Below the pieces are notes generated by a model. The model saw nothing but the letters and a program-made list of their open reading frames with translations, made no database searches and was not told the DNA's origin. Made by a program: the position numbers and the translations under genes. DNA of 64,000 bases from an uncultured Candidatus Rokubacteria bacterium (GTDB lineage: Bacteria; Methylomirabilota; Methylomirabilia; Rokubacteriales; DASRDR01): the NCBI GenBank assembly GCA_963826115.1, contig CAWGVS010000002.1:1-64000 (forward strand), given 5' to 3'. This document shows, piece after piece, positions 34,943 through 50,017 of this stretch; position 1 is the stretch's first letter; each line of letters begins with the position of its first letter.

Positions 34943-35067
34943 TCCTCCCCGGCCACGTCAAGTGCAACCCGATCGCGCCTGGTTCGGGACGCGGGGACTC
35001 CCAATCCCCCAGGGTGACGGCTTCGTGCACGAGCTTGGAGACCCCGCCGACGACGCAAGGAGAACGC

Positions 35068-35283: not shown

Positions 35284-35448
35284 CTCCGGCTTCGCCGACC
35301 GGTCGAGGACACGCGTGAGCCAGCCGTCGACCAACTCAGTGGAGCCGCCCTCCGCCAGCACTCCGACCGCGCTCCGGGGCCATCGGGGCAACCGAAGCAG
35401 TCAATCCGATGAGCGCCAGAACCTGTCGACGGTGCCGAAAGAGGACAG

Positions 35449-35827
35449 ATGAGCACGTCGCCTTCCTCTCAGTGACGCGAGCCAACGGCTCAGAGCAAAT
35501 CCGCCTTCACCGAGTTTCCCTGGTCGCCGCGGGCGGCCGAGGAAGGCTTCCACCGATGGCGGGGCCACCGCCGGTGGCCGCGGACCGGCAAGCGGGACAC
35601 GGGGCGCGTCAGAGGGACGGCCGCGGGTCGGACAGGTCAGCATCGCGACCCTGTCACCCCGCCTCCTACCCGCTCGGGAAGCCGCGAAATACCTGGGGGT
35701 CAGCTACGACAAGCTACTCGATCTTCGCTCGGCCGGAACCGTTCGACCGCTGTCCATCCCGGGTCTGCGGAAACTCGTGTTCGACGTCCGGGAGTTGGAC
35801 GACCTGGTTGAGCGGTGGCGAGCCTGA
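35449..35827 (+). CDS. Excisionase-like HTH protein (start uncertain or frameshifted)
   Basis: Manual translation ...GRRGRPRK...PRLLPAREAAKYLGVSYDKLLDL...LVFDVRELDDLVERWRA*; immediately upstream of the integrase. Confidence 0.7.
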
Positions 35828-35922
35828 CCTGACCCGGCCTCGTCCAGCTTCCCTCAAGTGACCCGTCGTGGAAGCACCAGAGATGGCAAGGCCCGTGTGG
35901 GCATGAACACGGGGGAGGAGCG

Positions 35923-36978
35923 ATGGGATCGTTGTTCAGGCGGACGAACTCCCGGAACTGGTGGATCAAGTACTGGGCGAACGGGCGTCAGCACCGGGAG
36001 AGCACGCGGACCGAAAAGGAGAGTGAGGCACGACGGGTCCTCAAGGAGCGGGAGGGGCGCGTGGCGGCGGGACAGCCCGTGCTCAACCGCGCAGACCGCG
36101 TCCGGTACGACGAAGTCGCCCAGGATCTTCGGACGCACTACCGAACCACGGGATCGAGGAATGTCGAAGAGGCCGGGTACCGGCTCGATCATCTGGACGC
36201 TTTCTTTTCCGGGTATCGCGTCGCGCAGATCACCCCTCGGCATGTCGAGAAGTACGTGGAGAAGCGCCAGGCCGGGGGGACCTCGAACGGAACGATCAAC
36301 CGCGAGGTGGCCGTCTTGATTCGCATGCTCCGGTTGGCCTACGAATCGGGAAAGCTTCTGCGCGTCCCGGTGATCCACAAGTTGAAAGAAGGCGCGCCAC
36401 GCCGGGGATTCTTCGAGCGCGAGCAGTACGAGGCCGTGCGGCGGTACCTTTCCCCCGACCTGCAGGTCGCCGTGGCACTCGAGTACGCGTTCGGCTGGCG
36501 ATGTCAGAGCGAGGTGCTCACCCTGCAACGGCGCCAGCTCGATGTCGAGGCCGGCACCCTGCGCCTCGAACCGGGCACCACGAAGAACGACGAGGGGCGG
36601 GTCGTGTATCTCCCGGCGGACCTCAAGAGCCAGCTGGTGGAGCAACTCGAACGCGTGCGGGCACTGGAACGGAAGACCGGGAGGATCGTTCCGCATCTGT
36701 TTCCGCACCTTCGAGGACGACACCAAGGCCAGCGGATTCGGGACTTCAGACGGGCGTGGGTGACGGCCTGCCGAAGGGCAGGCGTGCCCGAGATGCTACG
36801 TCACGACTTCCGGCGCACCGCCGTTCGGAACCTGGTCAACGCCGGAGTGCCGGAGCGGGTCGCCATGACCGTGACGGGCCATCGCACTCGGAGCGTGTTC
36901 GACCGGTACCACATCGTGAGTCCGGCAGACTTGCGGGACGTTGCCCGGCGGCTCACCCCGCCCGAGGACCCACGCTGA
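35923..36978 (+). CDS. int: Tyrosine recombinase/integrase
   Basis: GWRCQSE (R), TKN (K), HDFRR, TGH, DRY catalytic set; N-terminal arm-binding WWIKYW segment. Confidence 0.95.
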   Translation: MGSLFRRTNSRNWWIKYWANGRQHRESTRTEKESEARRVLKEREGRVAAGQPVLNRADRVRYDEVAQDLRTHYRTTGSRNVEEAGYRLDHLDAFFSGYRVAQITPRHVEKYVEKRQAGGTSNGTINREVAVLIRMLRLAYESGKLLRVPVIHKLKEGAPRRGFFEREQYEAVRRYLSPDLQVAVALEYAFGWRCQSEVLTLQRRQLDVEAGTLRLEPGTTKNDEGRVVYLPADLKSQLVEQLERVRALERKTGRIVPHLFPHLRGRHQGQRIRDFRRAWVTACRRAGVPEMLRHDFRRTAVRNLVNAGVPERVAMTVTGHRTRSVFDRYHIVSPADLRDVARRLTPPEDPR

Positions 36979-37032
36979 ACCGGCTACATTTCCGGGTCCA
37001 GCCAGGGGCGGGCACTCGCACAGCCCCCTGGC
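36809..37032 (+). repeat. Direct repeat copy 1: integrase 3' end plus downstream arm/hairpin
   Basis: Aligns by eye with 47341-47559. Confidence 0.92.
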
Positions 37033-37347
37033 CAGGCGGAGGTGTGCGTACCCACGCACAGTTGCTGAGGTACAGATGCTGCGTCTGCGCTCAGCGGTCG
37101 TCGGGCGACTCACGAGCCACTTCCCTACTATCCATATTCCGCTGAGTGCGCTAGCCGGGGCCACGCGTGGGCATCTCAAGCGCACCAGCGCACACGCGGT
37201 CCCAGCCGAATAGAATGCAGCAGGCAATTCTGCAGACGGCGGCGAGCCGATTGACCACTTTCTCGCCTGGCTGAGTCCACACGCGTCCGCCTCAGTGCAG
37301 AACGTGCACTGGCTTCGTTTGACGGCTAGCAAGACCAGTGTACGCGC

Positions 37348-39643
37348 TCAGCACTTCCACCACGACGGCGCTCCGACCACCGTCGCTCGATGTTGCCGCG
37401 TTTCGACCACGAGACCTTGCGGGGCCGACAACACCCGCCGGATCGGGTCCTTCGTACGAACTCCGCCGACGCGTCGGCCGGTGGGGCCGAACCACGAGAA
37501 CGCCTTGGACTCGAGTAAGCCGAACCCAGTATCACCAACCATCAGGTCGCCTTGGCCGAACACGTCAACAAGGGCCTCCAGACGATCCTCCGATAAGACG
37601 TACAGGCGCGTGTCGGTCAGCAAGTAGAGATGCGAGTCCGTCTGAATGATGTGGCGCGGGACCGCGCCGAGGTCGTACACACGGACCGGGACGCCTCGGT
37701 CGGACACTTCAACCACCTTTCCGGAATAGCCGGCCAGAAAGACGCGGTTGTCGCTGGAACCGAAGTTCGTGGCGTAGATCCAGTCGGAGGCATGCTTCTC
37801 GGAAACGCCCATGCTAAGGGTGATTTCCAGGCCGAGCGCCCCGCCAGGCGTGCCGCCTACAGGAACCTCCATTCGTTTGCGGCTCAGAATCTTCTCGTAG
37901 GTGACCCGCTCGACCTCGTCGGCGCCGATCCCGCGGAGATCCGCCCCGGTAAGTAGCTCCATTGCGGCCGCGAGCTCCTGGAACCGCCGGGTGGCGTCCG
38001 GATCGTTGGGATTCCTGTCCGGATGCCACCGCATGGCGAGCCGCCGGTACTGGCGGGTGATGTCCGCCGGCGCCACCGGCAGTTCGAGTTCCATCAGTTG
38101 GAGGGCTGTTTCGACGTCGCGGCTAGTGCCCAAGCGCTCCACGCGAGGAGTGGCGACCTTTGTCCACCCCTCCTGCGCCGGCAGTCGGATGCCCCACAGC
38201 ACCTCCCCAGTTGCGGTGGACATGCACCAGGCCTCGTCGACGACGGTCACCAGGTACCTGGACCGATCGGCCGAGATGGCGACGGACCTGACGTGGGTCC
38301 GTAGTTCCCGCGGGTCGATCCCGAGCCGCTCGGCTTGGGCTCGGTACTCAGGAAGGTCTTCGACGCGCTCCGTCAGGATCTGCTCGATTCGGTCCGAATA
38401 GCCGTGGAGCACCCCCTCGCGGGACATGAAAAGGATCGCCGAGCCGTCTGTATTGACGTCCGCGCGGTATACGCCGTGGGCGAGACCACGCTCGGCCACG
38501 ACTGACCCCGCCCGATCGGTCACCCGAAGTACCGCCGCCGCGTCGTCGAAGCCTTCACGGCGCCCATGGGGATCGAGCCAAAACGTCGAGCCACTGGTCG
38601 GGAAGGTGTCTTTGTAAGCGGGGTCCGGGCGCTGTTCCGGTGCGAGCTTGTGCTCAGAGAGGATCCGCCACCCTTCGCCGTCGGCCGCGAAGCGCTGCGC
38701 CGCTTGCGGAGCCGACGCGCGCCTGAGACTCGCCTCGGCAACGCGCACGGTCTCCGCCCAGACCCGGTCGGCGTGGTCCTCCGTCTCCTGCTGTTGCCGC
38801 CTCTCCCAATGCGCCGGTGCCTTTGGGAGCCGGACATACGGGAGTGCGGCGAGGTCGATTTCCCGTGCGCCCAACGGCGAACGCCGTGGGCGCGACCGCA
38901 GCACCGGCGCGATGGTACGCGTGGACGGCTGCGGCGGCGGACCCGTGCTCGTCAACGCCGTGGACACACTCACTGCCGATACGTCGGTGGCGACCGTCGG
39001 GTAGAGCTGGAGGCTCGATCCCTTCTTCACTCGTCGGATCCGACCAGCTTTTTCGAGCCACGCCGCGAGCTGAGAGACGCGGCGGCCATCCGCGACACCA
39101 AGGTGGGCTTTGAGCCCGGACTGCGCGAGTCCCGGTTCCCGGCGCACCACACCCATGATGCCAACCACGAGTTCAATATCCGCTTCCGCCTGCTCAGCCG
39201 ACGGCAACCAGTCGCGGAGCTCACGCACGCCTTCCAGCGCGGCGCGAAGTTCCCGAATACCCTCGCGATCCTCCAGGACCGCCATGAGCGTCGGCGCCGT
39301 GTGCACGGCATGTGACGTCCTGATGTCGAATCTGCCGTACTCACGCTGACACTCCCGGACGAACTGCGACATGATCGCGTAGGTCTCGCGCGCGGCGGCG
39401 ATCGCCGATCGATAGTCCTGATCTGCCTTTCCCCGCTCGATCACCGCCGAGAGCTCGAAGTAGCGGTCCGATCACCCGGCCTTCGACTTGGCCGCCTCGA
39501 GTGCCGTGCGCACTCGCTGGTTCCGAGGCGGATGCGATTGATGGCTTCGCCGGCTCGTCGACCGCTGCGGTGCTAGGGTGTGCAGACGTCGGCTTCGCCG
39601 CGGAGATGTCACCGCCGAACAGTCGCTTCAAGAAGGTGACCAT
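37348..39643 (-). CDS. Large J-domain-containing protein with beta-propeller-like repeats (apparent frameshift near 39468)
   Basis: ITRQYRRLAMRWHPDRNPND...RFQELAAA J-domain; flanking strand-rich repeats; HTH-like segment; start MVTFLKRLFGG. Confidence 0.75.
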
Positions 39644-39888
39644 CGCATCGCCTCGAGGCAGGAGCGCCGAAAGAGAACAGAAGGAATCAAGCGACTTGCG
39701 AAGCGCAGAGTCGGCGAATTGGCTGCCAGTCTCCGGTGGCCTTCCGGCTCATGAACTACCCGGGCCCCCTGCCCGCCGGGTCCGATCCTTAACCCGGTCG
39801 CGACGTCGGCGATGTCCGAGGAAGTGCCAACGTGGCTCGCGCGGCATCCTCGCACGTCGCACCGAGGTGCTCCCGACCGCCGAGGCGT

Positions 39889-42800
39889 TCATCGTCGGCG
39901 CACAGCCCGTTCGAGAGCGACCGCGCGGACGAAACCGTCTTCCGTATCAGCATGAACGGGTCCGCTATCCGGCACCATGGCAGCCGCCGCCAAGTAGTCA
40001 TGGGGCCTGCACGTGAACACAACGATCTGAAAGGAGCGAGCCTTGTCTATGAGCAACGCGCGGAACCAGTCCATACGGTCGCCGTCGCTCTGGACCAGCT
40101 GATCATCCAGGACGATGGTCGTACAGAGGTACTCCCCAAGGGAGATGCGGTACAACGTCGAGAGCTGCTCTCGCGTTCCGACCGAGATCCGGTCGATCTC
40201 CCGAGCCGCCCCGGCTGCTAGTACGCCCTCTGTGGCGAGGTGGGCGGTCAGCTGCACGCCCTGGTAACGCTGTTTCGTCAACTCTTGGAAGCGACCCGCG
40301 ATGGCTGGGGCAAGGGCCTGGCCCAGATTGTTGGCTTGAGCGGCGTCGGCCTCCTTCATCTGCTCGAGCAGGAGCCGCCATGCCTCATAGTCCTCTTCGA
40401 TCTCTCGCTCCTGGCGCTCGGCGAGGTCGAATGCCTCCAAGGCGTCGCGTAGCCGCTCGCGTGCTACGGCGCCACCGACCTGCTCGAGCGCACCGTGTGC
40501 CCGTTGCATCTCACGATCGATATCATCGAGGACCCGTTCGGCGGTCGCCAGGGTATCCCGAGATGCGGACAGCTCGCCCGCGCTGATGTCCCGCGCTGGA
40601 ACCGGAAGAGCGGTGTGCCGCGCCGATGCCGTGGAGAGCATCGCCTCCGCGGCATCGAGATCGTGCGCGGCGCGCAGTTCCTGCAGATCCGCAAGGTGGC
40701 GCATCTCGGAGGCGTGTTCGGCGGTCGCCTGTGTGACAGCCTCTTGAGCAGTGTTGGTGGCCGTGCGCGCCGCATCCGCCTTGGCGCGCGCACCGGCTAC
40801 GGCTTCCTCCATCTTCCGCGTGCGTGTCTCGATCGAACGCTCCAAGGCGCCGAGCTCCGCCGCGATCCTCTCCCGATCCGAGAAGGCGGCACGGAGGGAC
40901 TCTTCGGCCGCGCTCGCCGACTCGGCGATGCCAGATGGAAACTGCCGAACGGCGGCGTCCCGCGTCTGCTTGGCGGCGTCGAGAGTCGCCCGTGCCGCCC
41001 GAACACGCTCCTCCGCGACGCTGTGCGTCGTGGCCGCCTCTCTCGCCGCGCTCCTCGACTTTTCCGCCTCCTGCGACGCTTGTTGGCGACGAGCCCCGAG
41101 GGCGGTGCCCGGATCCTTGCCCAACCGGTCGAGCTCAGCGCTCAGACTCTCGAGGGACACGTCGCCGAGGGCCGCATGGCAGGCCTCGGCACGGGAGAGA
41201 GCCGCGGTCAGCGCGTCTTTCGCGCCGGCGAGAGCCGAGATGTCCCGGCGAACGACATCCAAGGCCCGGTCCATTTCTTTGAGGCTCGCATCCAGCTCCC
41301 GCGCCTCCGCCACCCGCGTTTCGAGCACATCCAGATCAGACGCGCCGGCCGCGGCGAGGTGCGGCGCCACCTCACCCGCCCAGCGGGCTTCCAGGCGGCG
41401 GACAGTGTCCTGCGCCTCACGGCGCCCCCCTCGGACACGAACGGTGGCGAGGTCGGCTATGCCGACTTCGACATCACTGTTCGCTTCGATCTCGAACGGC
41501 TGCGCGATGACTCCCGGATCGTCGTGGGCCCCGTCCTTGCGGACGTGGAGGTCGAGGGGGGCCCGCGGAGTCACGGTCACGACGAGGCCGACATTCAACG
41601 CCCCGCGGGCACCCGCCAGGTTCGCCGCGAGGGCTCGCATCGGCGCCAGGGCTTCGGGAGCGGGGACAATGATGGCGGCACGGCGCTTCGCCGCCTCCAC
41701 GCGTTCGGCAACCGTCTTAAGCAGTTGCGCCTGAAGGCCGGCCTCCTTGTCCACGCTGGAGCGGCTGTTCACGACCTGGCCGTCGGCCGCTTGCGCTGCC
41801 AGGGCGCGTTCCAGCAGGTCATACCTTCGCAGTTGCTCACCGACCGCCCTCTCCCCTTCGTCCGCCCGGGACCACTCCTCCCGCACCTGGGCGGCCATCG
41901 CTTCCAATCTGCCGTGTTCCTCCTCGGCGCGCAGCACTTCATCGACGCACTTCTGCGCGGCGGCGACTGCATCGATCGCCTTTTGGGCCTCCATCGCCAC
42001 CTGCTCCGTTGCGGACCTGCGAAGTTCAAGGCCTTGACGCGCCACGGTGTCGGCCATGGCCGGATCCAATCCCGCTGCGCGCGCGGTCTCCTCGGCGGCC
42101 TTCAGACCATCATCCGCTGTAGCCTGGACGTCCCGAGCGATCTTCAGAGCCTGTCTAGCGTTGTCCCGCTTCCCAACAAGCAACTCGACGTTCTGACCGG
42201 CGACGACAACCTCCTCATCCATCTTCCGAATCTGGCCGACCGCCTCCCGCGCGACACGGACGCACTCTGCACCCGCCGCAAGCTCCTCGGTCTGCCTGGT
42301 GAGCAGCTCCACCGCGGCGAGCCCTTCCGTGGCGACCCTTAGGTCCTCCTGATACTGGACGCGCTTCGACACCAGGTCCCGAAGCTGACTCTCCACGCCC
42401 TCGGAATCGTGGACCACCTTCTGCCAACGCTCCTTCTCCTCTCGCGCCGCGTTCAGGCGGTCGGCGGCGGCCTTGAAGACACTCCCCCGCGCCGTCTTCT
42501 TGGCACCCTTGTCCGTGTAGGCTGCGTCTCGTCTGGACTGCACTTCCCGAAGCAAGCCGACGAACAGCGGATCCTGCGCAAGCGCCTGCAACGCCGCGGC
42601 GATCCGTTCCTTGCCCGTTGGCGCGGTGTCGCGTTCCAGGCTTCCCTCAAGGATCGCGCTGACGTCGGCCTGTGTGGACAGCAACGCGGTGGCCAGAAAG
42701 CTGGTCGGAAGACCCTTGGCGGCCCCCGAGCCGCCCGGCTCGGGGATTCCCCAGCGCAGGATCTCCCGCAGTCTGGCATCGACCCTCCGGGCACGTTCCA

Positions 42801-43122
42801 CTTCATCGAACTGCTGACCATCCCGGGACTCCTGCAGCACGGACGAACCGCCCTTCCCGAACTGCTTTCGCACGCGCCAGAAGCGCTGCGCATCCGTTTG
42901 GAACGTCAGCTCGACCATGGGGTCCTGGCCACCGGTCCAGGGCACGAACGATTCGCAATGGGTTGACGTATGGGGTAGAAGGAGCACCAACCGGATCGCG
43001 TCCGCCAGCGTCGACTTGCCGAGATCGTTCGGACCATAGAGCACGTTCAGTCCTGGGCCGAAGACAACCTCCCCCGCCCCAATGCCGGCAACATTCTCGA
43101 CGCGGAGTCGATGAATCCTCAT
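39889..43122 (-). CDS. Rad50/SbcC/YhaN-like ABC-ATPase with long coiled coil
   Basis: Walker A GPNDLGKS, long Ala/Glu/Arg coiled coil, signature ISVGTREQ, Walker B IVLDD..VQSD, FTC. Confidence 0.9.
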   Translation of the reverse strand: MRIHRLRVENVAGIGAGEVVFGPGLNVLYGPNDLGKSTLADAIRLVLLLPHTSTHCESFVPWTGGQDPMVELTFQTDAQRFWRVRKQFGKGGSSVLQESRDGQQFDEVERARRVDARLREILRWGIPEPGGSGAAKGLPTSFLATALLSTQADVSAILEGSLERDTAPTGKERIAAALQALAQDPLFVGLLREVQSRRDAAYTDKGAKKTARGSVFKAAADRLNAAREEKERWQKVVHDSEGVESQLRDLVSKRVQYQEDLRVATEGLAAVELLTRQTEELAAGAECVRVAREAVGQIRKMDEEVVVAGQNVELLVGKRDNARQALKIARDVQATADDGLKAAEETARAAGLDPAMADTVARQGLELRRSATEQVAMEAQKAIDAVAAAQKCVDEVLRAEEEHGRLEAMAAQVREEWSRADEGERAVGEQLRRYDLLERALAAQAADGQVVNSRSSVDKEAGLQAQLLKTVAERVEAAKRRAAIIVPAPEALAPMRALAANLAGARGALNVGLVVTVTPRAPLDLHVRKDGAHDDPGVIAQPFEIEANSDVEVGIADLATVRVRGGRREAQDTVRRLEARWAGEVAPHLAAAGASDLDVLETRVAEARELDASLKEMDRALDVVRRDISALAGAKDALTAALSRAEACHAALGDVSLESLSAELDRLGKDPGTALGARRQQASQEAEKSRSAAREAATTHSVAEERVRAARATLDAAKQTRDAAVRQFPSGIAESASAAEESLRAAFSDRERIAAELGALERSIETRTRKMEEAVAGARAKADAARTATNTAQEAVTQATAEHASEMRHLADLQELRAAHDLDAAEAMLSTASARHTALPVPARDISAGELSASRDTLATAERVLDDIDREMQRAHGALEQVGGAVARERLRDALEAFDLAERQEREIEEDYEAWRLLLEQMKEADAAQANNLGQALAPAIAGRFQELTKQRYQGVQLTAHLATEGVLAAGAAREIDRISVGTREQLSTLYRISLGEYLCTTIVLDDQLVQSDGDRMDWFRALLIDKARSFQIVVFTCRPHDYLAAAAMVPDSGPVHADTEDGFVRAVALERAVRRR

Positions 43123-44282
43123 GGCGCGCGCTCGATCAGGGCATCGTGACTCTGGAGAAGCTTGTACAGGTGGGCCAACGCGCGAGTCGCTTTCGTCTTC
43201 TCGGCTTCGTCGACTGAATCGCCAACGATTCGGTCGAGGCGTGCCACCGTGTCTTTGAGGACAGCAGGAAGGTCGTCTGGAAAGGCACCCGAAGACCCCG
43301 CCTGCAAGCGCAGGTTCGTGCGGTCCACGAGCAGCACGCCCGCGCGTCCGTGAGTCGCGTCGGTTCCCTGGAGATCCTGCACAATCCGCTCGAGTTCGCT
43401 CTCCTCGGACAGAGAGACGATCATGTCGAGGTGGAGCCTCACCACGTGCCGCTCGAGGTGTTGGGTGGTCAGCACTCTGCGCAACTCATTCATGTCACGG
43501 CAATGAACGTCCATCCAACGCCAAAACGCTACGGGCTCCGCATCGACCCGAGGACGGCGACCGTGCCGGAACAAGGCGACGAGCGCCACGTTGCCGGCCG
43601 TCGCCTCGTCGAAGGACGTGGCTTCTGGAGCGCCGGGATACACGGTCGGGACCGGCAGCGCCTCTGTGACGTCGCGGAACGAGTGGGTATCGCCGATGGC
43701 CAAATAGTCGAGTCCGCGCTGAACGCCGGCGTCCCGACGGATTGGGAAATTCGTCTGGTGTCCCTCGATGTCGAACGTTTGGCCGTGAACACAGCCGATC
43801 CGGAGCCGCATATCACCGGGCTGGCGCGCAGGCAGCGCCATCGCAAGGTCGTTCTCGCCCGCCTTCGAATGACACGGCCGCGCGTAAAGGACTGCATCGG
43901 GCGTGATCTCGTACTCAAAGTCGTCTCGATCGACCACATGCACCCACTGCGGAAGACGCGACCGAAAGGGATGCCCTGGAGCCCACACCGATTCCGGAGT
44001 CAGGGGGTCATGGTTGCCGGGGACAAGGAACATGGGAGCATGCGGAGGGGGCTGATCCCTCAACACCTTGACGAGCCCCTCCCAAAAGTCCGCACTCGGT
44101 GCCGGATCGTCAAACAGATCGCCCGCGCACAGAACAGCGTTGACGCTGTTCCGTCGCGCCACATCGAGGATCCTCGAGATCACCTCCATCCGCGCCCGCG
44201 ACAGCTTCTTCTGCGCCTCCTCGGGAAATGACGGGAACCGGCGCCCGAGGTGCCAGTCCGCGGTGTGCAGCAGCCTCAGCAC
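43119..44282 (-). CDS. Mre11/SbcD/YhaO-like metallophosphoesterase nuclease
   Basis: HTADWHLG, AGDLFD, PGNHD, HG, LAIGDTH, YPGAPE; GTG start overlaps the helicase stop. Confidence 0.92.
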   Translation of the reverse strand: MLRLLHTADWHLGRRFPSFPEEAQKKLSRARMEVISRILDVARRNSVNAVLCAGDLFDDPAPSADFWEGLVKVLRDQPPPHAPMFLVPGNHDPLTPESVWAPGHPFRSRLPQWVHVVDRDDFEYEITPDAVLYARPCHSKAGENDLAMALPARQPGDMRLRIGCVHGQTFDIEGHQTNFPIRRDAGVQRGLDYLAIGDTHSFRDVTEALPVPTVYPGAPEATSFDEATAGNVALVALFRHGRRPRVDAEPVAFWRWMDVHCRDMNELRRVLTTQHLERHVVRLHLDMIVSLSEESELERIVQDLQGTDATHGRAGVLLVDRTNLRLQAGSSGAFPDDLPAVLKDTVARLDRIVGDSVDEAEKTKATRALAHLYKLLQSHDALIERAP

Positions 44283-47221
44283 GACGTCTTCGGGTCCGGG
44301 GGGTTTATCCGGAATGCCGCTCGGAACAGCCGCGTCACTTTGGGCGCCCGATATCGAAGCTCGTGGTATTGGTCCCGCCATTTTCGGTAGACCTCATCTT
44401 GCCTGGAGTCCAGAGCGTTGATCCGGCGCTCCAGCGCCTCGTCCCTCGTTGCGAGCCGCTCGATCTCCTCCTCGACCCTCTCGCGAGCGCTCGACCCGAC
44501 GATCTGATCGCGGCGATCTCGCGCTGAGCGTAACTGTTCGGCGATCCTGGCCCGTTCGCGGCGGCTGACGAGTACCTTGTCGTCGACGAACCGCTCGAGC
44601 TGCCCGATAGCCTGGTCGAAATGCTCCTGCTCCCTCTTTTCGACTTGCCGCTGGTCGACGAATACCGCCTCGTCTACGGCGTCATCGAGCCAGGGGGGAT
44701 CGACGATGGCCTCGATCGCGGGTCCGTCCACCGCCCGCAGGCGACAGATCTCAGCGGCCAGCGTCGGCTCGATGGGAACGCCCTCCACGACGGCCGCGGC
44801 GATCACTCGGTGCACCGGCTCGAAGCCGGCGTAGTCCACGAGAGCCACTCCGAGCACACCGGTCTTTCCCGCCAGAGCCCACAGATCGGCCGACGCGTCG
44901 TGCGGCAGCAAGAATCCGACCGAGCCCCCGGCCCACGTTCGGGCGTCTGCGATCGCCGCGTGGACCAATGGATGCGACAGGTTCAGCGCCTCGGCGTCCC
45001 GAAGACCTCGCGCATCTCCGGTCGCAAACAGATGGCCACTCCCGTGTCTGGGAGTGAGAGGTCCCGGCGTCGCAACATCAAAGATGACCCGACCACGCTC
45101 GTCGGAATGCCGGTACTCCACCCCACGCGCGTCGAGGTAGCCATCCACCAGTTCGGCGAGGTCTCGGTCGAGCTGCGCGAGCGCACCGGGCAATTCCGCG
45201 CGAAGCCGCCGAAAGACCTTTCGCACGTCGTCGTCGAACCGGGATTCGATGACCTGCGAGGTGCGCTCGTACTCCTTCTCGTACGCGTCCCGCCGATCCG
45301 AGATCCTGTCGCGGAGCGCAGCGATCTCTCGGGTCATCTCGTCAATGGTGCGCGACCGGCTGTAGATGCTCCGGAGGTCGCTCTCGAGCTCGACGGATAG
45401 AGCCGACACGACGATCTCCGGGGCGTCAGTGCGGGGCTCGTGCAGTACGTGGTCCGAGGCGTCCAGGACCTTGCCGAACAGGTCGAGCTTCTGGCTCAGG
45501 ATCTCGAAGGTCAGTCGATGGGCCTCATTGTCGCGCGCGATGAAGTTGACCACCGTGACGTCATGCTGCTGGCTGTAACGATGGCAGCGGCCAATGCGCT
45601 GCTCGATGCGCTGGGGGTTCCATGGCAGGTCGTAGTTGATGACCGTCTCGCAGAACTGGAGGTTCAGCCCCTTCGCGCCGGCCTCGGTGCACACCAGAAC
45701 CTTCGACCGAGTTCTGAACTCATGGACAAGAGCCAGCCTTACCGCTACCGTGCGACTGGGTCTTGACCCGGGCGCAAGGCGGACTCCTTCCTCCTGCTGC
45801 CAGCGAGTGTAGGCCTCGGTGGCGCGCTCGTGGTCGTTGGCGCCGCGGAACAACGTGATCTCGTCGTCCTGCAGACCCATGTCAAGTAGGAGAATTCGGA
45901 TGTACTCCTGCGTCCGTATGGATTCGGTGAACACAACGGCCTTCCCGCTACCGCGCCCCTCTCGTCCCAGCTCGAGCACAAGGCCGATCGCCTCCTTGAA
46001 CGAGCGCGCCTTCGCATCGTTTGGAAGAGCGCGAGCACGAGCGACGAAGGCTTCGACGCGGGCCAGCTCCGCAGCAAGGGCCAGCCGGTCCGTTGGAGGC
46101 CGCGTCTCCTCGGGTTGCGCCTCGTCATCGTCCTCCTCTTCCAGATCGAGCTGGTTCTCGATCGCCATGTCATCGACGGGCTGACCGGATTCGAGTCCCC
46201 GAAGACGCCGCGCGACGTTCTCGAGGCTCGCGGCCAGCGCGGAAATCGATGACGCCATGCGCCGATGGAACCCGATCAGCAGCAGCCGGCGCTGCCGACC
46301 AGAGAACGCGTAGATCGAAGGCTCAAGGAGATACTGCGTCACGTCATCGTAGAGCGACCGCTCGTCGTCACTCATCGAGTACTCGTAGAGCCGGCATCGG
46401 CGCTGCGTGAAGGGCCGATCCAGGAACTCCTGGGCCTGCCGGCGAAGCGTCCGCTGCAGCACAGTCGCGAGGCGTCGCTGGAGCTCGTGCTCCTGGCCGG
46501 GCACCAGCGTCCGGTCATCCTCGGCACAAAAGACCTGGCGGAAAGTAGTGATGTCGCCGAGCAGCGTGCCCGTGGGTTCCACGTATTGGACCAGCCCCCA
46601 CAGCTCCGCGAGCGAGTTTTGTATCGGCGTCGCGGTGAGCAGAAGGACGGGGGAGGACCGAAGAAACCCGCGAACCCGATGCGCCATCATCGCCTCTTCC
46701 GAGGCGTCGTCGTAGATGCCGTCGCGTCCGTAGCGCTTGTGCAGGCCCGCGAATATCTCGTGCGCCTCGTCGATGACCACCAGGTCAAAAGGAGGCACGG
46801 CGCCCAGGGGCGTCGCCCCACGCTCGCTGCCCGCGAACTCACGGCCCACCAAGTACACCCCAGGCGCGAGGAACGTTTGGTCCTCTCGCGCCTGGACGCC
46901 GAAGAGGTTGAACAGCTCGTTCTGCCACTGGCCGATGAGCGACTTGGGGACGATCAGCAGGATGCGCTGAGCGCCTTCCGCACGTGTTTGTGCGATCACC
47001 AACCCGGCCTCGATGGTCTTGCCGAGACCGACCTCGTCCGCGAGGATGCAGCCGCCTTCCCTTAGCCGTCGCAGCGCAAAGATGACCGCGTCGATCTGGT
47101 GGGGGTTCGGGTCGATCCGTGCTTGGCGTTGGGACGCCGCATAGCGCTCCCGGTCATCTGGCCGGCGGATCCGCACAAGCTCTTCGGCGAGAAGGCGACG
47201 ATTGAATGGATGGAGGTTCAT
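44276..47221 (-). CDS. SNF2-family (RapA/HepA-like) helicase
   Basis: PHQ, LADEVGLGKT, DEAH, LTATP, EAGAKGLNLQ, YDLPWNPQRIEQRIGRCHR; C-terminal coiled coil. Confidence 0.95.
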   Translation of the reverse strand: MNLHPFNRRLLAEELVRIRRPDDRERYAASQRQARIDPNPHQIDAVIFALRRLREGGCILADEVGLGKTIEAGLVIAQTRAEGAQRILLIVPKSLIGQWQNELFNLFGVQAREDQTFLAPGVYLVGREFAGSERGATPLGAVPPFDLVVIDEAHEIFAGLHKRYGRDGIYDDASEEAMMAHRVRGFLRSSPVLLLTATPIQNSLAELWGLVQYVEPTGTLLGDITTFRQVFCAEDDRTLVPGQEHELQRRLATVLQRTLRRQAQEFLDRPFTQRRCRLYEYSMSDDERSLYDDVTQYLLEPSIYAFSGRQRRLLLIGFHRRMASSISALAASLENVARRLRGLESGQPVDDMAIENQLDLEEEDDDEAQPEETRPPTDRLALAAELARVEAFVARARALPNDAKARSFKEAIGLVLELGREGRGSGKAVVFTESIRTQEYIRILLLDMGLQDDEITLFRGANDHERATEAYTRWQQEEGVRLAPGSRPSRTVAVRLALVHEFRTRSKVLVCTEAGAKGLNLQFCETVINYDLPWNPQRIEQRIGRCHRYSQQHDVTVVNFIARDNEAHRLTFEILSQKLDLFGKVLDASDHVLHEPRTDAPEIVVSALSVELESDLRSIYSRSRTIDEMTREIAALRDRISDRRDAYEKEYERTSQVIESRFDDDVRKVFRRLRAELPGALAQLDRDLAELVDGYLDARGVEYRHSDERGRVIFDVATPGPLTPRHGSGHLFATGDARGLRDAEALNLSHPLVHAAIADARTWAGGSVGFLLPHDASADLWALAGKTGVLGVALVDYAGFEPVHRVIAAAVVEGVPIEPTLAAEICRLRAVDGPAIEAIVDPPWLDDAVDEAVFVDQRQVEKREQEHFDQAIGQLERFVDDKVLVSRRERARIAEQLRSARDRRDQIVGSSARERVEEEIERLATRDEALERRINALDSRQDEVYRKWRDQYHELRYRAPKVTRLFRAAFRINPPDPKTSC

Positions 47222-47340
47222 CAGACGGCCCTTGGACGTGCAGAGGCGAAACGCGACGGCCGTCGATCGCTGCCCTCAGTAGCGGCGTTTGCCCTCTTCT
47301 GGGCCAGCATCATGGGATCATGGGCCGGTGGTGTCGTTCA

Positions 47341-47559
47341 TCCGGCGTACTCCCGTTCGGAACCTGGTCAACGCCGGAGTGCCGGAGCGGGTCGCCTGAC
47401 GGGCCACCGCACTCGAAGCGTGTTCGACAGGTACCACATCCGTGAGTCCGGCAGACTTGCGGGAGGTTGCCAGGCGGCTCACCTCGTCCGAGGAACCACG
47501 CTAAACCGGGTACATTTCCGGGTACAGCCAGGGGGCTGGCACTCGCCCAGCCCCCTGGC
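47341..47559 (+). repeat. Direct repeat copy 2: pseudogenised integrase 3' end with intact arm repeats and hairpin
   Basis: 7-bp deletion and +1 insertion versus int; CCGGGTACA at 47506 and 47518; perfect 12-bp stem at 47528-47558. Confidence 0.92.
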
Positions 47560-47575
47560 AACTACCCGTCAGATA

Positions 47576-47653
47576 TGGCGGGGTCGACGGGACTTGAACC
47601 CGCGGCCTCTGGCTTGACAGGCCAGTGTGCTAACCAGGCTGCACCACGACCCC
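47576..47653 (-). tRNA. tRNA-Asp (GTC)
   Basis: GGGGTCG/CGACCCC acceptor stem, D arm, CTGGC-CTGTCAA-GCCAG anticodon arm, TTCAAGT loop, G discriminator, encoded CCA. Confidence 0.97.
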
Positions 47654-47672
47654 GATGCGGAAGAACGCAGTC

Positions 47673-47701
47673 AGACTAGCGACTTACCGCACACCTGTCA
47701 A
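47673..47701 (-). promoter_or_regulatory. Sigma70 promoter for the intact tRNA-Asp, located inside the island end
   Basis: TTGACA-17 bp-TAGTCT, -10 box ending 19 bp before the tRNA 5' end. Confidence 0.8.
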
Positions 47702-47820
47702 CTCGCGACGTCGGTCACGCGCGACATCGGTAGCAACCGGACCAAACTATGCCCACACCTATGCTTGAGAGACCACTGGCCTTTGGGGCCAGTGGCTCAG
47801 GGGAGTGCGTTGGGTGGGAT

Positions 47821-48060
47821 TCAGGCACTCCGCGCTCGTCGGACGTGTTCGGCGAGGAGGTCGTTGATGAGGGACTGATAGCCAAGCCCACGCCGCTTGG
47901 CCTCGCGCCGCACGGCATCGAGAACCTGGGGATCGATCCGAATCGCAATGAGTCGGCGGGCCGCCGCCCCCAGGGGGGGCCGCCCGACGCGCCGCATCGC
48001 CCGGAGCTGCGCGGGGGACGCCTCCGGGATATCGGAGAAGTCAATCCCGGGACGCCGCAT
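47821..48060 (-). CDS. brnA: BrnA antitoxin family protein
   Basis: IDFSDIPE, IAIRIDPQVL, GYQSLINDLL. Confidence 0.9.
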   Translation of the reverse strand: MRRPGIDFSDIPEASPAQLRAMRRVGRPPLGAAARRLIAIRIDPQVLDAVRREAKRRGLGYQSLINDLLAEHVRRARSA

Positions 48061-48328
48061 AGCCCGCCCGCTCCTTGCGGCTCGCCCGGCGCGCGCTGAT
48101 GATGCGGATGCTCTCGCCATCGCCTTCCCTCCTCACGGTATACGCCACGATGAGCACACGGCCGGTCGCCGCTCGGCCCAGTCGGAGGAATCGCGCCTCC
48201 TCCGCGGAGTGACCCAGATCCGGGCCATCGAGGGCGTCCGGATCACCGAACACGGTCGCCGCCTCCTCGAACGAGACCCTGTGCTTGGCGCGGTTGACCG
48301 CGGCCTTCCGCGCGTCCCATTCGAACAT
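48041..48328 (-). CDS. brnT: BrnT family toxin
   Basis: FEWD..K...N..KH.VSFEEA..VF, IRIISARRA..KER. Confidence 0.93.
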   Translation of the reverse strand: MFEWDARKAAVNRAKHRVSFEEAATVFGDPDALDGPDLGHSAEEARFLRLGRAATGRVLIVAYTVRREGDGESIRIISARRASRKERAGYAASRD

Positions 48329-48372
48329 GGTTCAGTATATACGAAACTCGGTCGGCTACCGCGACGTGCTCG

Positions 48373-48402
48373 CTATGCCAGAAACTATGCCCGCGACCGC
48401 CC
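48373..48402. repeat. 30-bp direct repeat (arm-type site), copy of 60007-60036
   Basis: CTATGCCAGAAACTATGCCCGCGACCGCCC versus CTATGCCCGAAACTATGCCCGCGACCGCCC, 1 mismatch. Confidence 0.85.
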
Positions 48403-48677
48403 TCCCCGGCGTCAGCAGGGGGAGTCAAGGATTCCCCGATCCAGCGCATTGGGAAAGACGACGCCTATGGGCCGAGCGACGCGAGCCGGGGGAGCCCCAG
48501 GAGCAGGTTCACGCCGAAGAACATCGCGCCCAGGACCAGCCCATACACCCAGAAATCGCAGCCCCGACGCGATCGTATGCAGGTCCCCGATGACGGCAGG
48601 CCGCTCGATCCAGCGATATCGAGCCGCTCCCGAACCCCTGGCGACCCGTTTCGCTGGTCGTCGCATGAGGTCACTTC

Positions 48678-50015
48678 TCACGCGACGCGGCGGTCCCGAG
48701 CGCGAAGTCGTTCGAGCCGCCGCGCCACTGCGTCGACATCGCGCACCGGGACCATCTGCTCGATCTCCCTGCCGAACAACAGATCCAGCGTCCAGGCGAC
48801 TAACACCCGGAGTTTCTTCGGCAGCCGCGGCAGCTTCAGCCAATACACGGTTCGCCAGAGCCCCCAGGCGACGAAGCCGGAGAACTTCAATCCGAACACC
48901 ATCGCCACGCCGGTGTGGCGTCCGATGGTAGCCAGCTGCCCTTGCGTGGTATAGGCGAATGGTCTGAGAGGACGACCCAGAATCGTTGCTTCGATGTTCC
49001 TGGCCGCCGTGCGTCCCTCGCGCAGCGCGTGTTGCGCCGTCGGCGGATGCACATCGCCCGTCGTGCCATGGGGCACCGCCGCGGAGTCGCCCGCCGCCCA
49101 CAGCCCCGGCAATCCGCGGATCCTGAGGAATTCATCGACCATGAGCCGCCCTTTCACCTTCTGACACGGCAACCGATCGATGACTGGACTGGGCTTCACG
49201 CCGGCAGTCCACAGCAGCGTTTCGGCGGGAATGGCGGCACCGTTGCTCAATTCGACCACCGAACCGTCGTACCGCTCGACGCGCGCGCCCGTCATGACTT
49301 CCACCTTGCGCTCGGCCAACTTGCGCTGGGCATACGCGCCGAGTTCTTCGCCCAGTTCTGGTAGCAGCGATCTCCCCGGATGCACGATGACGACGCGGAT
49401 CAAGGCCTCGTCCAGCTCAGGATAGTGTCGCACTGCCTCGCGCACGAAGTCGTTCAACGCGCCGATGGCTTCAACACCGGCGAACCCGCCACCAGCGGCG
49501 ACAAACGTGAGCAGCCGCCGCCGAGTAGACGGGTCGTTCTGGATCGTCGCTTCTTCCAGAAGGCCCAGCACGCGCTCGCGCAACAGCGCCGCGTCGGTCA
49601 GGCTCTTGATCGTCACGGCCCAGTCCCCCACCCCGGGAAGGTCGAAGAAGTTCGTCTCGGACCCCAGCGTGAGGACCAGATGGTCGAACTCGAAATCGAG
49701 CTCGCGTCCCGCCAGGCCGCCGATGCAATGCACGACGCGGGCCTCCACATCGATGCGCTGCACATCGGCTTCGACGAATCTGACGTGACGAAGAATGCGT
49801 CGGATCGGATTGATGATGTCGCCGGGGTAGAGATCACCCGCCGCGACTTCGTGCAACATCGGGGTAAACAGCACGAAGTTCTCGCGGCTGATGAGTGTCA
49901 CCTCCATGTCGGCCCGGCGCGCGAGTCGTTTCTCGAAATACACGGCCGCGCTGAGTCCCGCGAAGCCGCCGCCAGCAATCACGATCTTCGTCTTCTTCAT
50001 GGTCATCGTCCTCAT
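48678..50015 (-). CDS. ndh: Type II NADH dehydrogenase-like FAD-dependent oxidoreductase
   Basis: IVIAGGGFAG, FTPMLHEVAAG, GGGFAGVE, WTAGV, AGD, PPTAQHA, GQLATIG. Confidence 0.9.
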   Translation of the reverse strand: MRTMTMKKTKIVIAGGGFAGLSAAVYFEKRLARRADMEVTLISRENFVLFTPMLHEVAAGDLYPGDIINPIRRILRHVRFVEADVQRIDVEARVVHCIGGLAGRELDFEFDHLVLTLGSETNFFDLPGVGDWAVTIKSLTDAALLRERVLGLLEEATIQNDPSTRRRLLTFVAAGGGFAGVEAIGALNDFVREAVRHYPELDEALIRVVIVHPGRSLLPELGEELGAYAQRKLAERKVEVMTGARVERYDGSVVELSNGAAIPAETLLWTAGVKPSPVIDRLPCQKVKGRLMVDEFLRIRGLPGLWAAGDSAAVPHGTTGDVHPPTAQHALREGRTAARNIEATILGRPLRPFAYTTQGQLATIGRHTGVAMVFGLKFSGFVAWGLWRTVYWLKLPRLPKKLRVLVAWTLDLLFGREIEQMVPVRDVDAVARRLERLRARDRRVA

Positions 50016-50017
50016 GC

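What the first reader, a model, noticed from the sequence alone, without database searches (positions are those of the whole stretch)
37348..47221. Candidate undescribed defence system: SNF2 helicase + Mre11-like nuclease + Rad50/SMC-like ATPase + J-domain protein
Seen: three genes with overlapping stop/start junctions (44276-44282, 43119-43122) and intact catalytic motifs, followed 245 bp later by a co-oriented J-domain protein. The block is antisense to the element backbone and lies between the integrase and the tRNA. Known: integrase-adjacent cargo sites are defence hotspots; SNF2 helicases occur in DISARM, BREX and Zorya type I; SMC-like sensors occur in Lamassu and Wadjet; Mre11-Rad50/SbcCD acts on DNA ends. 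I do not recognise this combination as a named system, and no methylase is present. Inference: a DNA-end or replication-intermediate sensing nuclease coupled to a dsDNA translocase, acting against phage or plasmids.
Basis: partly seen in the sequence, partly recalled or inferred. Interest (0 to 1): 0.85.

Follow-up and report, generated by a model that had tools for sequence, protein, structure and literature searches.

The report
Mobile SNF2–Mre11–Rad50-like three-gene cassette
Three tightly linked genes for a DNA translocase, an Mre11-type nuclease and a Rad50-type ATPase form a cassette that moves between distant soil bacteria and often sits beside known anti-phage genes, so it is a good but untested candidate for a new defence system; the neighbouring J-domain gene is not part of it.

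Summary
The four ORFs are real. Both overlapping junctions (GTGCTGA, ATGA) and the DEAH, GNHD and Walker A motifs are confirmed.

Only three genes form a unit: a RapA/DrmD-like SNF2 helicase, an Mre11/SbcD-like phosphoesterase, and a Rad50-like ATPase with no CxxC hook.
- Across 53 related loci, SNF2 lies directly upstream in 46 of 46 testable loci.
- The Rad50-like gene lies directly downstream in 35 of 40; four of the five misses are divergent copies.
- The J-domain protein is found in 0 of 53.

The cassette is accessory and mobile.
- It occurs in 1 of 14 other same-genus genomes and 9 of 151 Bryobacteraceae-family genomes.
- Its GC is 6 points below the genome mean.
- Here it sits between an integrase-3' remnant next to tRNA-Asp and an intact integrase.
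- Elsewhere, two divergent alleles occupy the same slot of one conjugative-element backbone.
- Neighbours include Hhe/PDC-S37-like, Zorya, Gabija and Avs2 genes.

No PADLOC v2 system model matched the Mre11-like gene. Nine literature searches found no description of this trio.

The nuclease–ATPase pair most resembles B. subtilis SbcF/SbcE repair proteins, so a mobile repair role remains a serious rival. Function is untested.

The parts
44276..47221 (-). SNF2-family dsDNA translocase (981 aa), RapA/DrmD-like, with no N-terminal RNAP-binding domain. First gene of the cassette.
   Evidence: Pfam SNF2-rel_dom, Helicase_C and ResIII. PADLOC DrmD PDLC02619 1.3e-129. NCBIfam DISARM_DrmD_b 434 bits, below its 950 cut-off. 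Best PDB sequence match is RapA. C-terminal 382 aa modelled at pLDDT 83.8; it matches the RapA C-terminal part by Foldseek, E 3.4e-05. Motifs I, II (DEAH), III and VI are invariant in 11 orthologues.
43119..44282 (-). Mre11/SbcD/SbcF-like metallophosphoesterase nuclease (387 aa from GTG 44282). Second gene.
   Evidence: Pfam Metallophos 7.7e-12. TIGR00619 sbcd 61.7 bits, below its 77.65 cut-off. PDB profile hits to SbcD/Mre11 cover the N-terminal ~90 residues only. D9, H11, D55, N90, H91, H166, D198 and H200 are invariant in 21 sequences. The start overlaps the SNF2 stop.
39889..43122 (-). Rad50/SbcC/SbcE-like ABC ATPase (1077 aa). Split head, ~650-residue coiled coil and a small beta-domain at the apex in place of a zinc hook. 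Third gene.
   Evidence: AAA_23 and SMC_N match the N-terminus only. Pfu Rad50 N and C lobes match by profile. Walker A, Q151, signature S980-x-G982, Walker B D1006-D1007 and D1013 are invariant in 7 orthologues. No CxxC in 7 of 7. Apex model pLDDT 87.3 with six strands at residues ~513-564; no PDB fold match at E<=0.001. ATGA overlap with the Mre11-like stop.
37348..39643 (-). Neighbouring gene, not part of the conserved cassette. J-domain (HPD) protein with beta-rich flanks. Main ORF 37348-39444; a possible frameshifted N-terminal extension runs from ATG 39643.
   Evidence: DnaJ domain at residues 457-504. Found in 0 of 53 related loci. No full-length relative in 251 phylum genomes. Frames are fused in G004 but shifted here. 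Atlas best score is only 0.78.
47341..47570 (+). Decayed 3' end of a tyrosine integrase gene plus hairpin, immediately beside tRNA-Asp. Right-hand copy of the direct repeat that brackets the segment.
   Evidence: 91-95% identical to 36809-37043, with a 7-bp deletion and a 1-bp insertion. Also present in G004.
36809..37043 (+). Left-hand copy of the direct repeat: the 3' end of the intact integrase gene plus hairpin.
35923..36978 (+). Intact tyrosine integrase at the end of the plus-strand element to the left.
   Evidence: Pfam Phage_integrase 1.6e-12 and Phage_int_SAM_2. The element to the left carries ParM/ALP-like, SSB, RadC, AAA ATPase and UvrD genes.
47576..47653 (-). tRNA-Asp (GTC), the chromosomal anchor of the island.
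   Evidence: ARAGORN. The same junction is present in G004.

Best explanation
The feature is a horizontally mobile three-gene cassette. It probably encodes one machine.

Proposed complex: an SbcCD/SbcEF-type complex made of an Mre11-like nuclease dimer held by a Rad50-like ATPase. The ATPase has long coiled coils that end in a small beta-domain instead of a zinc hook. This complex is coupled to a RapA/DrmD-like SNF2 dsDNA translocase.

Most likely role: defence against invading DNA.
1. The Rad50-like ATPase clamps DNA ends, hairpins or replication intermediates. Linear phage genomes, concatemers and incoming plasmids expose these; the circular chromosome mostly does not.
2. The Mre11-like subunit cuts them.
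3. The SNF2 motor either strips end-protecting proteins or reels DNA into the nuclease, making cleavage processive.
4. There is no methylase, so self is spared by DNA topology or structure, not by modification.

What is shown: gene content, intact motifs, strict three-gene linkage, mobility, and the defence-island and conjugative-element neighbourhoods.

What is inferred: complex formation, the DNA substrate and the defence role.

The J-domain gene is an unrelated neighbour.
For: Linkage:
- SNF2 lies directly upstream in 46 of 46 loci with at least 600 bp of upstream sequence.
- The Rad50-like gene lies directly downstream in 35 of 40 with enough downstream sequence. Four of the five misses still show a Rad50-like C-terminal match 2-3.5 kb downstream. 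L019 truly lacks it.
- No other gene is conserved across the first 12 loci.
- Start and stop codons overlap.
- More distant two-gene relatives (L020, L021) have no SNF2.

Accessory and mobile character:
- Found in 1 of 14 other same-genus genomes and 9 of 151 genomes of the family of L009's genome, in two score classes.
- Orthologues occur in records labelled Acidobacteriota, Myxococcota and Gammaproteobacteria.
- Segment GC is 65.8% against 71.9% for the genome.
- It lies in a tRNA-Asp island bracketed by integrase-end repeats.
- In G004 the copy carries 1-bp indels that break all three genes.

Defence and mobile-element context:
- L010 and L144 share a conjugative-element backbone: 91% nt identity upstream through an Hhe/PDC-S37-like helicase-REase, and 86% in TrwC. 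They carry divergent cassette alleles (65-72% in patches) in the same slot.
- A large SF1 helicase with a C-terminal region like that of the L010/L135 helicase-REase sits directly upstream in 5 loci: L010, L135, L136, L144 and L159. The L136 and L159 matches are weak (26-29% identity over about 400 C-terminal residues).
- Among 86 flanking ORFs from 25 metagenome loci, PADLOC gives strong hits: PDC-S37/Hhe in 4 ORFs, ZorD E=0, ZorC 1.8e-209, Avs2 2.2e-259, GajA 6.1e-200, GajB 8.1e-204 and DpdE 1.8e-242.
- The helicase's best family match is DISARM DrmD.

Allele pattern:
- Between this window and G004, synonymous/non-synonymous codon differences are 14/4 of 979 codons for SNF2 and 6/2 of 387 for Mre11-like, but 76/76 of 1077 for Rad50-like. 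This fits allele exchange or diversification of the putative sensor.

Complex prediction (weak):
- Mre11-like plus the SNF2 C-terminal 382 aa scored 0.59 (runs 0.59, 0.68, 0.49). The best of 3 controls scored 0.00.
- That mark was reached by 58 of 80 solved complexes and 2 of 110 mismatched pairs. At 0.60 or under it was reached by only 7 of those 80, and by both mismatches that passed.
- Runs agree in at least 91% of contacts; partner pLDDT is at least 69.

Precedent:
- Lamassu is reported to have evolved from SbcCD and to sense dsDNA ends (PMC12663957; passages read).
Against: - No experiment exists.
- Many neighbourhoods are ordinary: radical SAM, aminotransferase, transporters, VWA proteins. 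No formal enrichment test against a background was run.
- The aggregate family scans do not say which loci hold the Zorya, Gabija or Avs2 hits.
- The nuclease-ATPase pair resembles B. subtilis SbcF/SbcE, which act in double-strand-break repair and competence (PMC2811018).
- The window's genome has no other SbcD-family match at E<=0.001, so the cassette could supply a repair function there.
- SNF2 and Mre11-like are highly conserved. The 120 best database hits are 76-98% identical, which looks like purifying selection rather than an arms race.
- The co-fold pass is only 'weak support'.
- No close orthologue was found in the viral collection (identity at most 34%). This says nothing either way about defence.
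Confidence: 0.5

Rival explanations
1. It is an accessory DNA-repair or end-resection module: an SbcEF/SbcCD-like hairpin and end nuclease with its own motor. It would be functionally analogous to the archaeal Mre11-Rad50-HerA-NurA operon, or to remodeller-assisted MRX resection. Mobile elements carry it because it helps hosts survive DNA breaks (desiccation, oxidative stress in soil) or helps process incoming DNA.
For: - Gene order (nuclease then ATPase), the absent CxxC and a unique central domain match the published description of B. subtilis SbcF/SbcE, which act in double-strand-break repair and transformation (PMC2811018).
- Look-alike Atlas clusters carry PF13514 AAA_27 in 31-85% of members; that this Pfam family is the YhaN type is my recollection.
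- No other SbcD-family gene in the genome at E<=0.001.
- Strong sequence conservation of SNF2 and Mre11-like.
- All catalytic motifs are intact.
Against: - Present in only 1 of 14 congeners and 9 of 151 genomes of another family, with apparent decay in G004. It is therefore dispensable.
- It is never at a fixed locus.
- It recurs beside known defence genes and in a conjugative-element cargo slot with allele replacement.
- The SNF2 partner is closest to a defence-system helicase family.
- P0003 itself does not reach Pfam AAA_27 at E<=0.01.
Confidence: 0.33
2. It serves the mobile elements that carry it rather than the host. For example, it could process or protect the element's own transfer or replication intermediates, or attack competing elements (inter-element warfare).
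For: - Location between relaxase/coupling-protein genes and other cargo in L010 and L144.
- Location in an integrase-linked island here.
Against: - Most loci show no conjugation genes within 10 kb.
- No integrase homologue of the window's type in 0 of 53 loci.
- Attack on competing elements would in practice be a defence function, so this rival overlaps the best explanation.
Confidence: 0.1
3. One reading: a four-gene system in which the J-domain protein is a functional component, for example recruiting Hsp70 to the nuclease complex.
For: - Same strand, adjacent, and inside the same repeat-bracketed segment.
- Its first 157 residues are co-inherited with the cassette in G004.
- The HPD motif is present.
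Against: - Found in 0 of 53 related loci.
- No full-length homologue in 251 phylum genomes.
- Separated by 444 bp from the in-frame start, with a frameshifted N-terminus here.
- In G004 the matching pieces lie on two different contigs, with internal stops.
Confidence: 0.03

Closest known systems
Bacillus subtilis SbcF-SbcE (YhaO-YhaN)
   Same: An Mre11/SbcD-like nuclease gene immediately upstream of an SMC/SbcC-like ATPase gene. The ATPase lacks the CxxC hook and has a unique central domain between long coiled coils, preceded by a conserved proline (paper passages; here P487 invariant).
   Different: - No SNF2 helicase is described with SbcEF in the passages read.
- SbcEF is described as conserved in Gram-positive genomes, whereas this cassette is sporadic and mobile.
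- Pfam AAA_27 is not reached by P0003.
SbcCD / Mre11-Rad50
   Same: Calcineurin-type phosphoesterase motifs. An ABC ATPase with a split head and long coiled coil. Adjacent, co-oriented genes. Best PDB sequence matches.
   Different: - All SbcD/Mre11/Rad50 NCBIfam models score far below cut-off.
- No zinc hook.
- Walker B is D-D, not D-E, and the motif V position reads G-D-x-H.
- A dedicated SNF2 partner is present.
DISARM helicase DrmD
   Same: Best family match of the SNF2 protein: PADLOC 1.3e-129; NCBIfam DrmD_b 434 bits over profile positions 21-621 of 868.
   Different: - The score is below the equivalog cut-off of 950.
- No DrmA, DrmB, DrmC or methylase adjacent. The only DUF1998/MZB gene lies on another contig.
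- The C-terminal 330 residues are not matched by the DrmD profile.
E. coli RapA (HepA)
   Same: Best solved-structure relative of both the ATPase core and the modelled C-terminal region (Foldseek E 3.4e-05, prob 1.00).
   Different: - It lacks the N-terminal region: the alignment starts at RapA residue ~143.
- TM-scores are low (0.25-0.29).
- RapA is a housekeeping RNA-polymerase recycling factor and is not linked to a nuclease.
Lamassu (LmuA-LmuB-LmuC)
   Same: A Rad50/SbcC-derived sensor reported to detect dsDNA ends (PMC12663957). There are weak N-terminal LmuB hits, 3.8e-12.
   Different: - Lamassu lost the Mre11 nuclease domain and uses swappable effectors, while this cassette keeps an intact Mre11-like nuclease.
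- Lamassu has no helicase.
- The LmuB hit covers only residues 1-131.
Archaeal mre11-rad50-herA-nurA operon (recalled, not tested here)
   Same: Mre11-Rad50 genetically coupled to a DNA motor for end processing.
   Different: The motor there is a HerA hexameric ATPase with the NurA nuclease, not an SNF2 translocase. It is a core repair operon, not mobile cargo.

Membership tests
DISARM (class 1) | SNF2 helicase scoring as a DrmD equivalog | tested here: not met
   NF038318 434 bits against a cut-off of 950. NF038317 204.6 against 610.
DISARM (class 1) | Adjacent DrmA/DrmB (DUF1998/MZB) genes and a DNA methylase | tested here: not met
   The segment holds only four ORFs with coding signal, none with these domains. 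The single PF09369 match in the genome is on contig C12.
SbcCD / Mre11-Rad50 | Nuclease reaches the SbcD or Mre11 family cut-off | tested here: not met
   TIGR00619 61.7 against 77.65. NF008206 58.2 against 450. Mre11 models score 18-36 bits against 434-600.
SbcCD / Mre11-Rad50 | Phosphoesterase metal-binding motifs intact | tested here: met
   D9, H11, D55, N90, H91, H166, D198 and H200 are invariant in 21 sequences. Assignment of these residues to motifs I-V is recalled knowledge.
SbcCD / Mre11-Rad50 | CxxC zinc hook at the coiled-coil apex | tested here: not met
   No CxxC in 7 of 7 orthologues. The apex is modelled as a small beta-domain.
SbcEF (YhaO/YhaN) | Nuclease gene directly upstream of an SMC-like ATPase that lacks CxxC and has a unique central domain | tested here: met
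   Family description taken from PMC2811018 passages.
SbcEF (YhaO/YhaN) | Sequence membership (Pfam AAA_27 / direct similarity to B. subtilis YhaN and YhaO) | tested here: inconclusive
   P0003 has no AAA_27 hit at E<=0.01. Feature-similar Atlas clusters carry AAA_27 in 31-85% of members.
Lamassu | LmuB-type ATPase with LmuA effector and LmuC | tested here: not met
   LmuB hits are confined to residues 1-131. No LmuA or LmuC model hit for any of the four proteins.
Any system in PADLOC-DB v2.0.0 (2023) | All components match models of one system | tested here: not met
   The Mre11-like protein's only hit is a generic endonuclease effector at E 0.0046. The J-domain protein has none. Newer DefenseFinder/PADLOC releases could not be run.

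The most novel reading that the evidence does not exclude
An undescribed anti-phage/anti-plasmid system of soil bacteria. An SbcEF/SbcCD-type DNA-end sensor keeps its own Mre11 nuclease and has recruited a DrmD/RapA-like SNF2 motor. It would be a living intermediate between housekeeping Mre11-Rad50 repair and effector-swapping SMC immunity such as Lamassu, and it would discriminate self by DNA ends or structure without methylation. The Rad50-like coiled coil and apex would be the fast-evolving sensor, exchanged as alleles at cargo hotspots of conjugative elements.
Probability: 0.4. Interest if true: 0.75.

Novelty: new variant of a known kind. Interest (0 to 1): 0.62.

Why it matters
If the cassette is a defence system, it would show that a complete Mre11-Rad50-type nuclease, not just its sensor half, is used directly for immunity. 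It would also give SNF2 helicases, whose role in DISARM, BREX and Zorya is still unclear, a defined nuclease partner to study.

It is compact at 7.3 kb and three genes, and it has intact motifs. It occurs in several phyla, and near-identical sequence is held by soil, rhizosphere, groundwater and bog runs. Testing in a laboratory host is straightforward.

If it turns out to be a mobile repair module instead, it is still the first SbcEF-like pair with a dedicated translocase. It would also be an example of repair genes travelling as conjugative-element cargo.

Tried and rejected
**J-domain protein as a component.** Rejected: 0 of 53 loci. In 251 phylum genomes, 26 match at E<=1e-8, but all except G000, G004, G008 and G113 match only the J domain. 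The Atlas best score is 0.78.

**DISARM, Lamassu and canonical SbcCD membership.** Rejected; see the membership rows.

**Phage-borne origin.** The IMG/VR scan gave 31 relatives, all at 40% identity or less (the longer matches at 34% or less), and no orthologue.

**Second att copy.** A 29-nt piece of the tRNA-Asp 3' part has no other match within 3 mismatches. How the integrase-end repeat arose is unresolved.

**Fold of the Rad50-like apex.** Foldseek against PDB gave no match at E<=0.001. There are only ~60-residue usher-plug-like similarities at E~0.01. pdb_via_wide was not run.

**Promoter/terminator scan of 37000-47700.** Counts were at shuffle level: 1 promoter-like site against 0.9 expected, and 4 terminator-like sites against 4.8.

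**Expression.** Two metatranscriptome runs from one study hold short, near-identical contigs over all three genes and the J-domain gene. The tool states that this does not show transcription, because DNA can be present in such libraries. I draw no conclusion from it.

**Literature.** Nine searches and passages of four further papers gave no SNF2 + SbcD/Mre11 + SbcC/Rad50 system. Subscription papers and all supplementary tables were not visible. Candidate-system lists in supplements could name it.

**The search of earlier findings.** It was closed.

**Taxon of the window.** Not determined. That it differs in phylum from the Acidobacteriota carriers is inferred: its phylum held only 251 genomes, while one Bryobacteraceae-labelled family held more than 151.
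Full report
**What is there**

The window is GC-rich (genome 71.9%). On the minus strand between 37348 and 47221 lie four ORFs.
- The first (44276-47221, 981 aa) is an SNF2-family ATPase. Pfam gives SNF2-rel_dom 1.5e-26 and Helicase_C 3.3e-17.
- The second is a calcineurin-type phosphoesterase with SbcD/Mre11-like N-terminal motifs (TIGR00619 at 61.7 bits, below the 77.65 cut-off). Its conserved start is GTG 44282, giving the MLRLLHTADWH N-terminus shared by all relatives.
- The third (39889-43122, 1077 aa) is a Rad50/SMC-like ABC ATPase. Its head halves match P. furiosus Rad50 by profile.
- The fourth (37348-39444) carries a J domain with HPD.

The '245 bp' gap is measured to ATG 39643. In this window that ATG is one base out of frame with the J-domain ORF. 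The in-frame GTG 39444 is 444 bp from the Rad50-like stop. A same-genus genome (G004) has the two frames fused.

**The unit is three genes, not four**

I fetched relatives of the nuclease from species-representative genomes and metagenome contigs. I located all four proteins in them with tblastn. Fifty-three loci carry a nuclease orthologue at 39-81% identity.
- SNF2 lies immediately upstream in 46 of 46 loci with at least 600 bp of upstream sequence.
- A Rad50-like N-terminus lies immediately downstream in 35 of 40 loci with enough downstream sequence.
- In four of the five misses (L015, L154, L157, L169) a Rad50-like C-terminal match lies 2-3.5 kb downstream, so the gene is present but divergent. 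L019 has a truncated nuclease and no ATPase.
- The J-domain protein is found in 0 of 53 loci, and so is any homologue of the window's integrase.

An all-against-all comparison of ORFs in the first 12 loci found no fourth conserved gene. More distant nuclease-ATPase pairs (L020 and L021, about 31-35% identity) have no SNF2. The helicase association therefore defines this clade.

In 251 genomes of the window's phylum, the J-domain protein has no full-length relative. There are only fragments in two congeners and one 29% match.

**Anatomy of the three proteins**

*SNF2.* Motifs I, II (DEAH), III and VI are invariant in 11 orthologues, and the whole length including the C-terminal third is conserved.
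- Its best family is DISARM DrmD (PADLOC 1.3e-129; NCBIfam DrmD_b 434 bits), but this is far under the equivalog cut-off of 950 and covers only the motor.
- Its best solved relative is RapA.
- An AlphaFold model of the last 382 residues (pLDDT 83.8) matches the RapA C-terminal region by Foldseek (E 3.4e-05, TM 0.25-0.29).
- The RapA N-terminal region is not covered.

*Nuclease.* D9, H11, D55, N90, H91, H166, D198 and H200 are invariant in 21 sequences. I read these as the phosphoesterase metal and catalytic motifs, with G-D-x-H where Mre11 has G-H-x-H. That assignment is recalled, not computed.

*ATPase.* Walker A, a Q-loop glutamine, an S-x-G signature, a D-D Walker B and a D-loop aspartate are invariant.
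- There is no CxxC in 7 of 7 orthologues.
- The coiled-coil apex is modelled (pLDDT 87.3) as a six-stranded ~55-residue beta-domain. It has no PDB fold match at E<=0.001.

This combination matches the published description of B. subtilis SbcF/SbcE (YhaO/YhaN): nuclease gene first, an SMC-like ATPase without a hook, and a unique central domain after a conserved proline (PMC2811018, passages read). Feature-similar clusters in the ESM Atlas carry Pfam AAA_27 in 31-85% of members, although P0003 itself does not reach it.

**Do the proteins touch?**

A co-fold of the nuclease with the SNF2 C-terminal region gave 'weak support'.
- The score was 0.59 (runs 0.59, 0.68, 0.49), and the best of three controls was 0.00.
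- The mark was reached by 58 of 80 solved complexes and 2 of 110 mismatched pairs. At 0.60 or under, it was reached by only 7 of those 80 and by both passing mismatches.
- Runs agree in at least 91% of contacts, and partner pLDDT is at least 69.

This modestly favours a single machine, given that translational coupling made binding plausible beforehand.

**Mobility and setting here**

The 10.3-kb segment (65.8% GC) lies between an intact integrase and tRNA-Asp. It is bracketed by a ~235-bp direct repeat. One copy is the integrase 3' end plus hairpin (36809-37043). The other is a decayed copy abutting the tRNA (47341-47570).

To the left is a plus-strand element with ParM/ALP-like, SSB, RadC, an IetA-like AAA ATPase, a GajB-like UvrD helicase and the integrase.

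G004 shares 38973-47654 at 97.3% identity, with the same remnant-tRNA junction but different DNA on both sides. There, six 1-bp indels outside homopolymers break all three cassette genes. This is either decay or assembly error.

Divergence between the two copies is uneven. Synonymous/non-synonymous codon differences are 14/4 of 979 codons (SNF2), 6/2 of 387 (nuclease) and 76/76 of 1077 (ATPase). The ATPase allele therefore has a different history or evolves much faster.

**Distribution**
- The cassette is in 1 of 14 other same-genus genomes.
- It is in 9 of 151 sampled genomes of the family of L009's genome (record labelled Bryobacteraceae), in two score classes.
- It occurs in records labelled Terriglobales, Vicinamibacterales, Polyangiaceae, Myxococcales and Gammaproteobacteria.
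- The protein database holds 2477 relatives at E<=1e-5 among the 8000 candidates scored, the best 120 at 76-98% identity.
- At 50% clustering, 280 representatives reach E<=1e-30.
- Near-identical 31-mers occur in 20 runs from 13 studies of soil, rhizosphere, groundwater and bog.
- No orthologue was found in IMG/VR.
- The window's genome has no other SbcD-family match.

**Neighbourhoods**

Flanks differ from locus to locus. Some are ordinary metabolism genes. Others are telling.
- In L010 the cassette sits between an Hhe/PDC-S37-like SF1 helicase-REase and TrwC/TrwB conjugation genes.
- L144 has the same backbone: 91% nt identity over 6 kb upstream and 86% in TrwC. It carries a divergent cassette allele, only 65-72% identical in patches.
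- A large SF1 helicase with a similar C-terminal region lies directly upstream in five loci (L010, L135, L136, L144, L159), though the L136 and L159 matches are weak (26-29% identity over about 400 residues).
- Among 86 flanking ORFs from 25 metagenome loci, PADLOC reports ZorD (E=0), ZorC (1.8e-209), Avs2 (2.2e-259), GajA (6.1e-200), GajB (8.1e-204), DpdE (1.8e-242) and four PDC-S37/Hhe proteins. The aggregate output does not say which loci hold them.
- In L009 a second SNF2 gene and a methylase-like ORF follow the cassette.

This is the pattern expected of defence-island cargo, but I ran no background-controlled enrichment test.

**Interpretation**

I am confident (about 0.9) that this is a conserved, horizontally mobile, accessory three-gene cassette encoding an SbcEF/SbcCD-type nuclease-ATPase pair with a dedicated SNF2 translocase.

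Its function is inferred. I favour defence against invading DNA (about 0.5). The grounds are the sporadic distribution, allele replacement in a conjugative-element cargo slot, recurrent defence-gene neighbours, a DrmD-like helicase, and the precedent that Lamassu derives from SbcCD and senses DNA ends (PMC12663957).

The main rival (about 0.33) is a mobile repair or end-resection module, in line with SbcEF biology and the absence of any other SbcD-type gene in this genome.

No match to a named system was found in PADLOC v2. Nine literature searches also found none. Supplementary tables and subscription papers were not visible, and newer defence databases could not be run.

**Verdict**

The J-domain gene should be dropped. 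I rate it a new variant of a known kind (an Mre11-Rad50-type machine with an SNF2 motor, probably immune), with interest 0.62.

Noticed in passing
window 47655-60132 (repeats 47612-47654 and 60133-60175): A 12.5-kb segment is flanked by an exact 43-nt repeat of the 5' half of tRNA-Asp. It is absent from G004, where the tRNA is followed directly by the sequence at 60133 onward. It carries a BrnT toxin gene (48041-48328), an NDH-2-like gene, a sigma-54 activator (PADLOC RtcR_PspF2 7.6e-118), membrane proteins and a PAP2 gene, but no integrase. It may be an insertion here or a deletion between tRNA copies in G004.
   Followed up: partly
window 48373-48402 and 60007-60036; also ~47745-47770: A 30-nt motif containing tandem CTATGCC words recurs near both ends of that segment (97% identical copies). 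These could be arm-type or iteron-like sites.
   Followed up: no
window ~17000-36978: The plus-strand element left of the cassette has ParM/ALP-like (19941-20846), SSB (21960-22922), RadC (22968-23600), an AAA ATPase matching PADLOC IetA at 1.1e-19 (28804-30621), a UvrD helicase matching GajB at 1.2e-71 (31908-33683) and the integrase. No GajA or IetS partner was looked for.
   Followed up: partly
window 39463-39472 versus L089 (G004): A 1-bp difference puts the ATG-39643 leader out of frame with the J-domain ORF in the window, while G004 has one continuous frame. In G004 the match to residues 1-163 lies beside the cassette on contig C4. The matches to residues 501-698 lie on contig C5, with a stop codon.
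   Followed up: partly
L089 (G004) 8262-16943: Ten 1-bp indels relative to the window, none in a homopolymer run. Six of them break the three cassette genes. This is either pseudogenisation or assembly error.
   Followed up: partly
window 39889-43122 versus G004: The Rad50-like gene is about five times more diverged than the adjacent SNF2 and nuclease genes, at synonymous sites too (76 of 1077 codons against 14 of 979 and 6 of 387). This suggests a mosaic origin of the cassette.
   Followed up: partly
L144 versus L010: The same conjugative-element backbone (Hhe-like helicase-REase upstream, TrwC/TrwB downstream) carries two divergent alleles of the cassette. L144 has about 2.6 kb of extra ORFs after the cassette.
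   Followed up: yes
P0138: A 1338-aa database protein matches the nuclease profile over its first 270 residues (E 9.1e-106). It may be a nuclease-ATPase fusion form of the family.
   Followed up: no
window 49380-50876 (+), antisense to the NDH-2-like gene 48678-50147: An ORF with a sub-threshold Frankia_peptide match (34.3 bits against a cut-off of 48) overlaps the NDH-2-like gene on the opposite strand. It is probably a spurious high-GC antisense frame.
   Followed up: no
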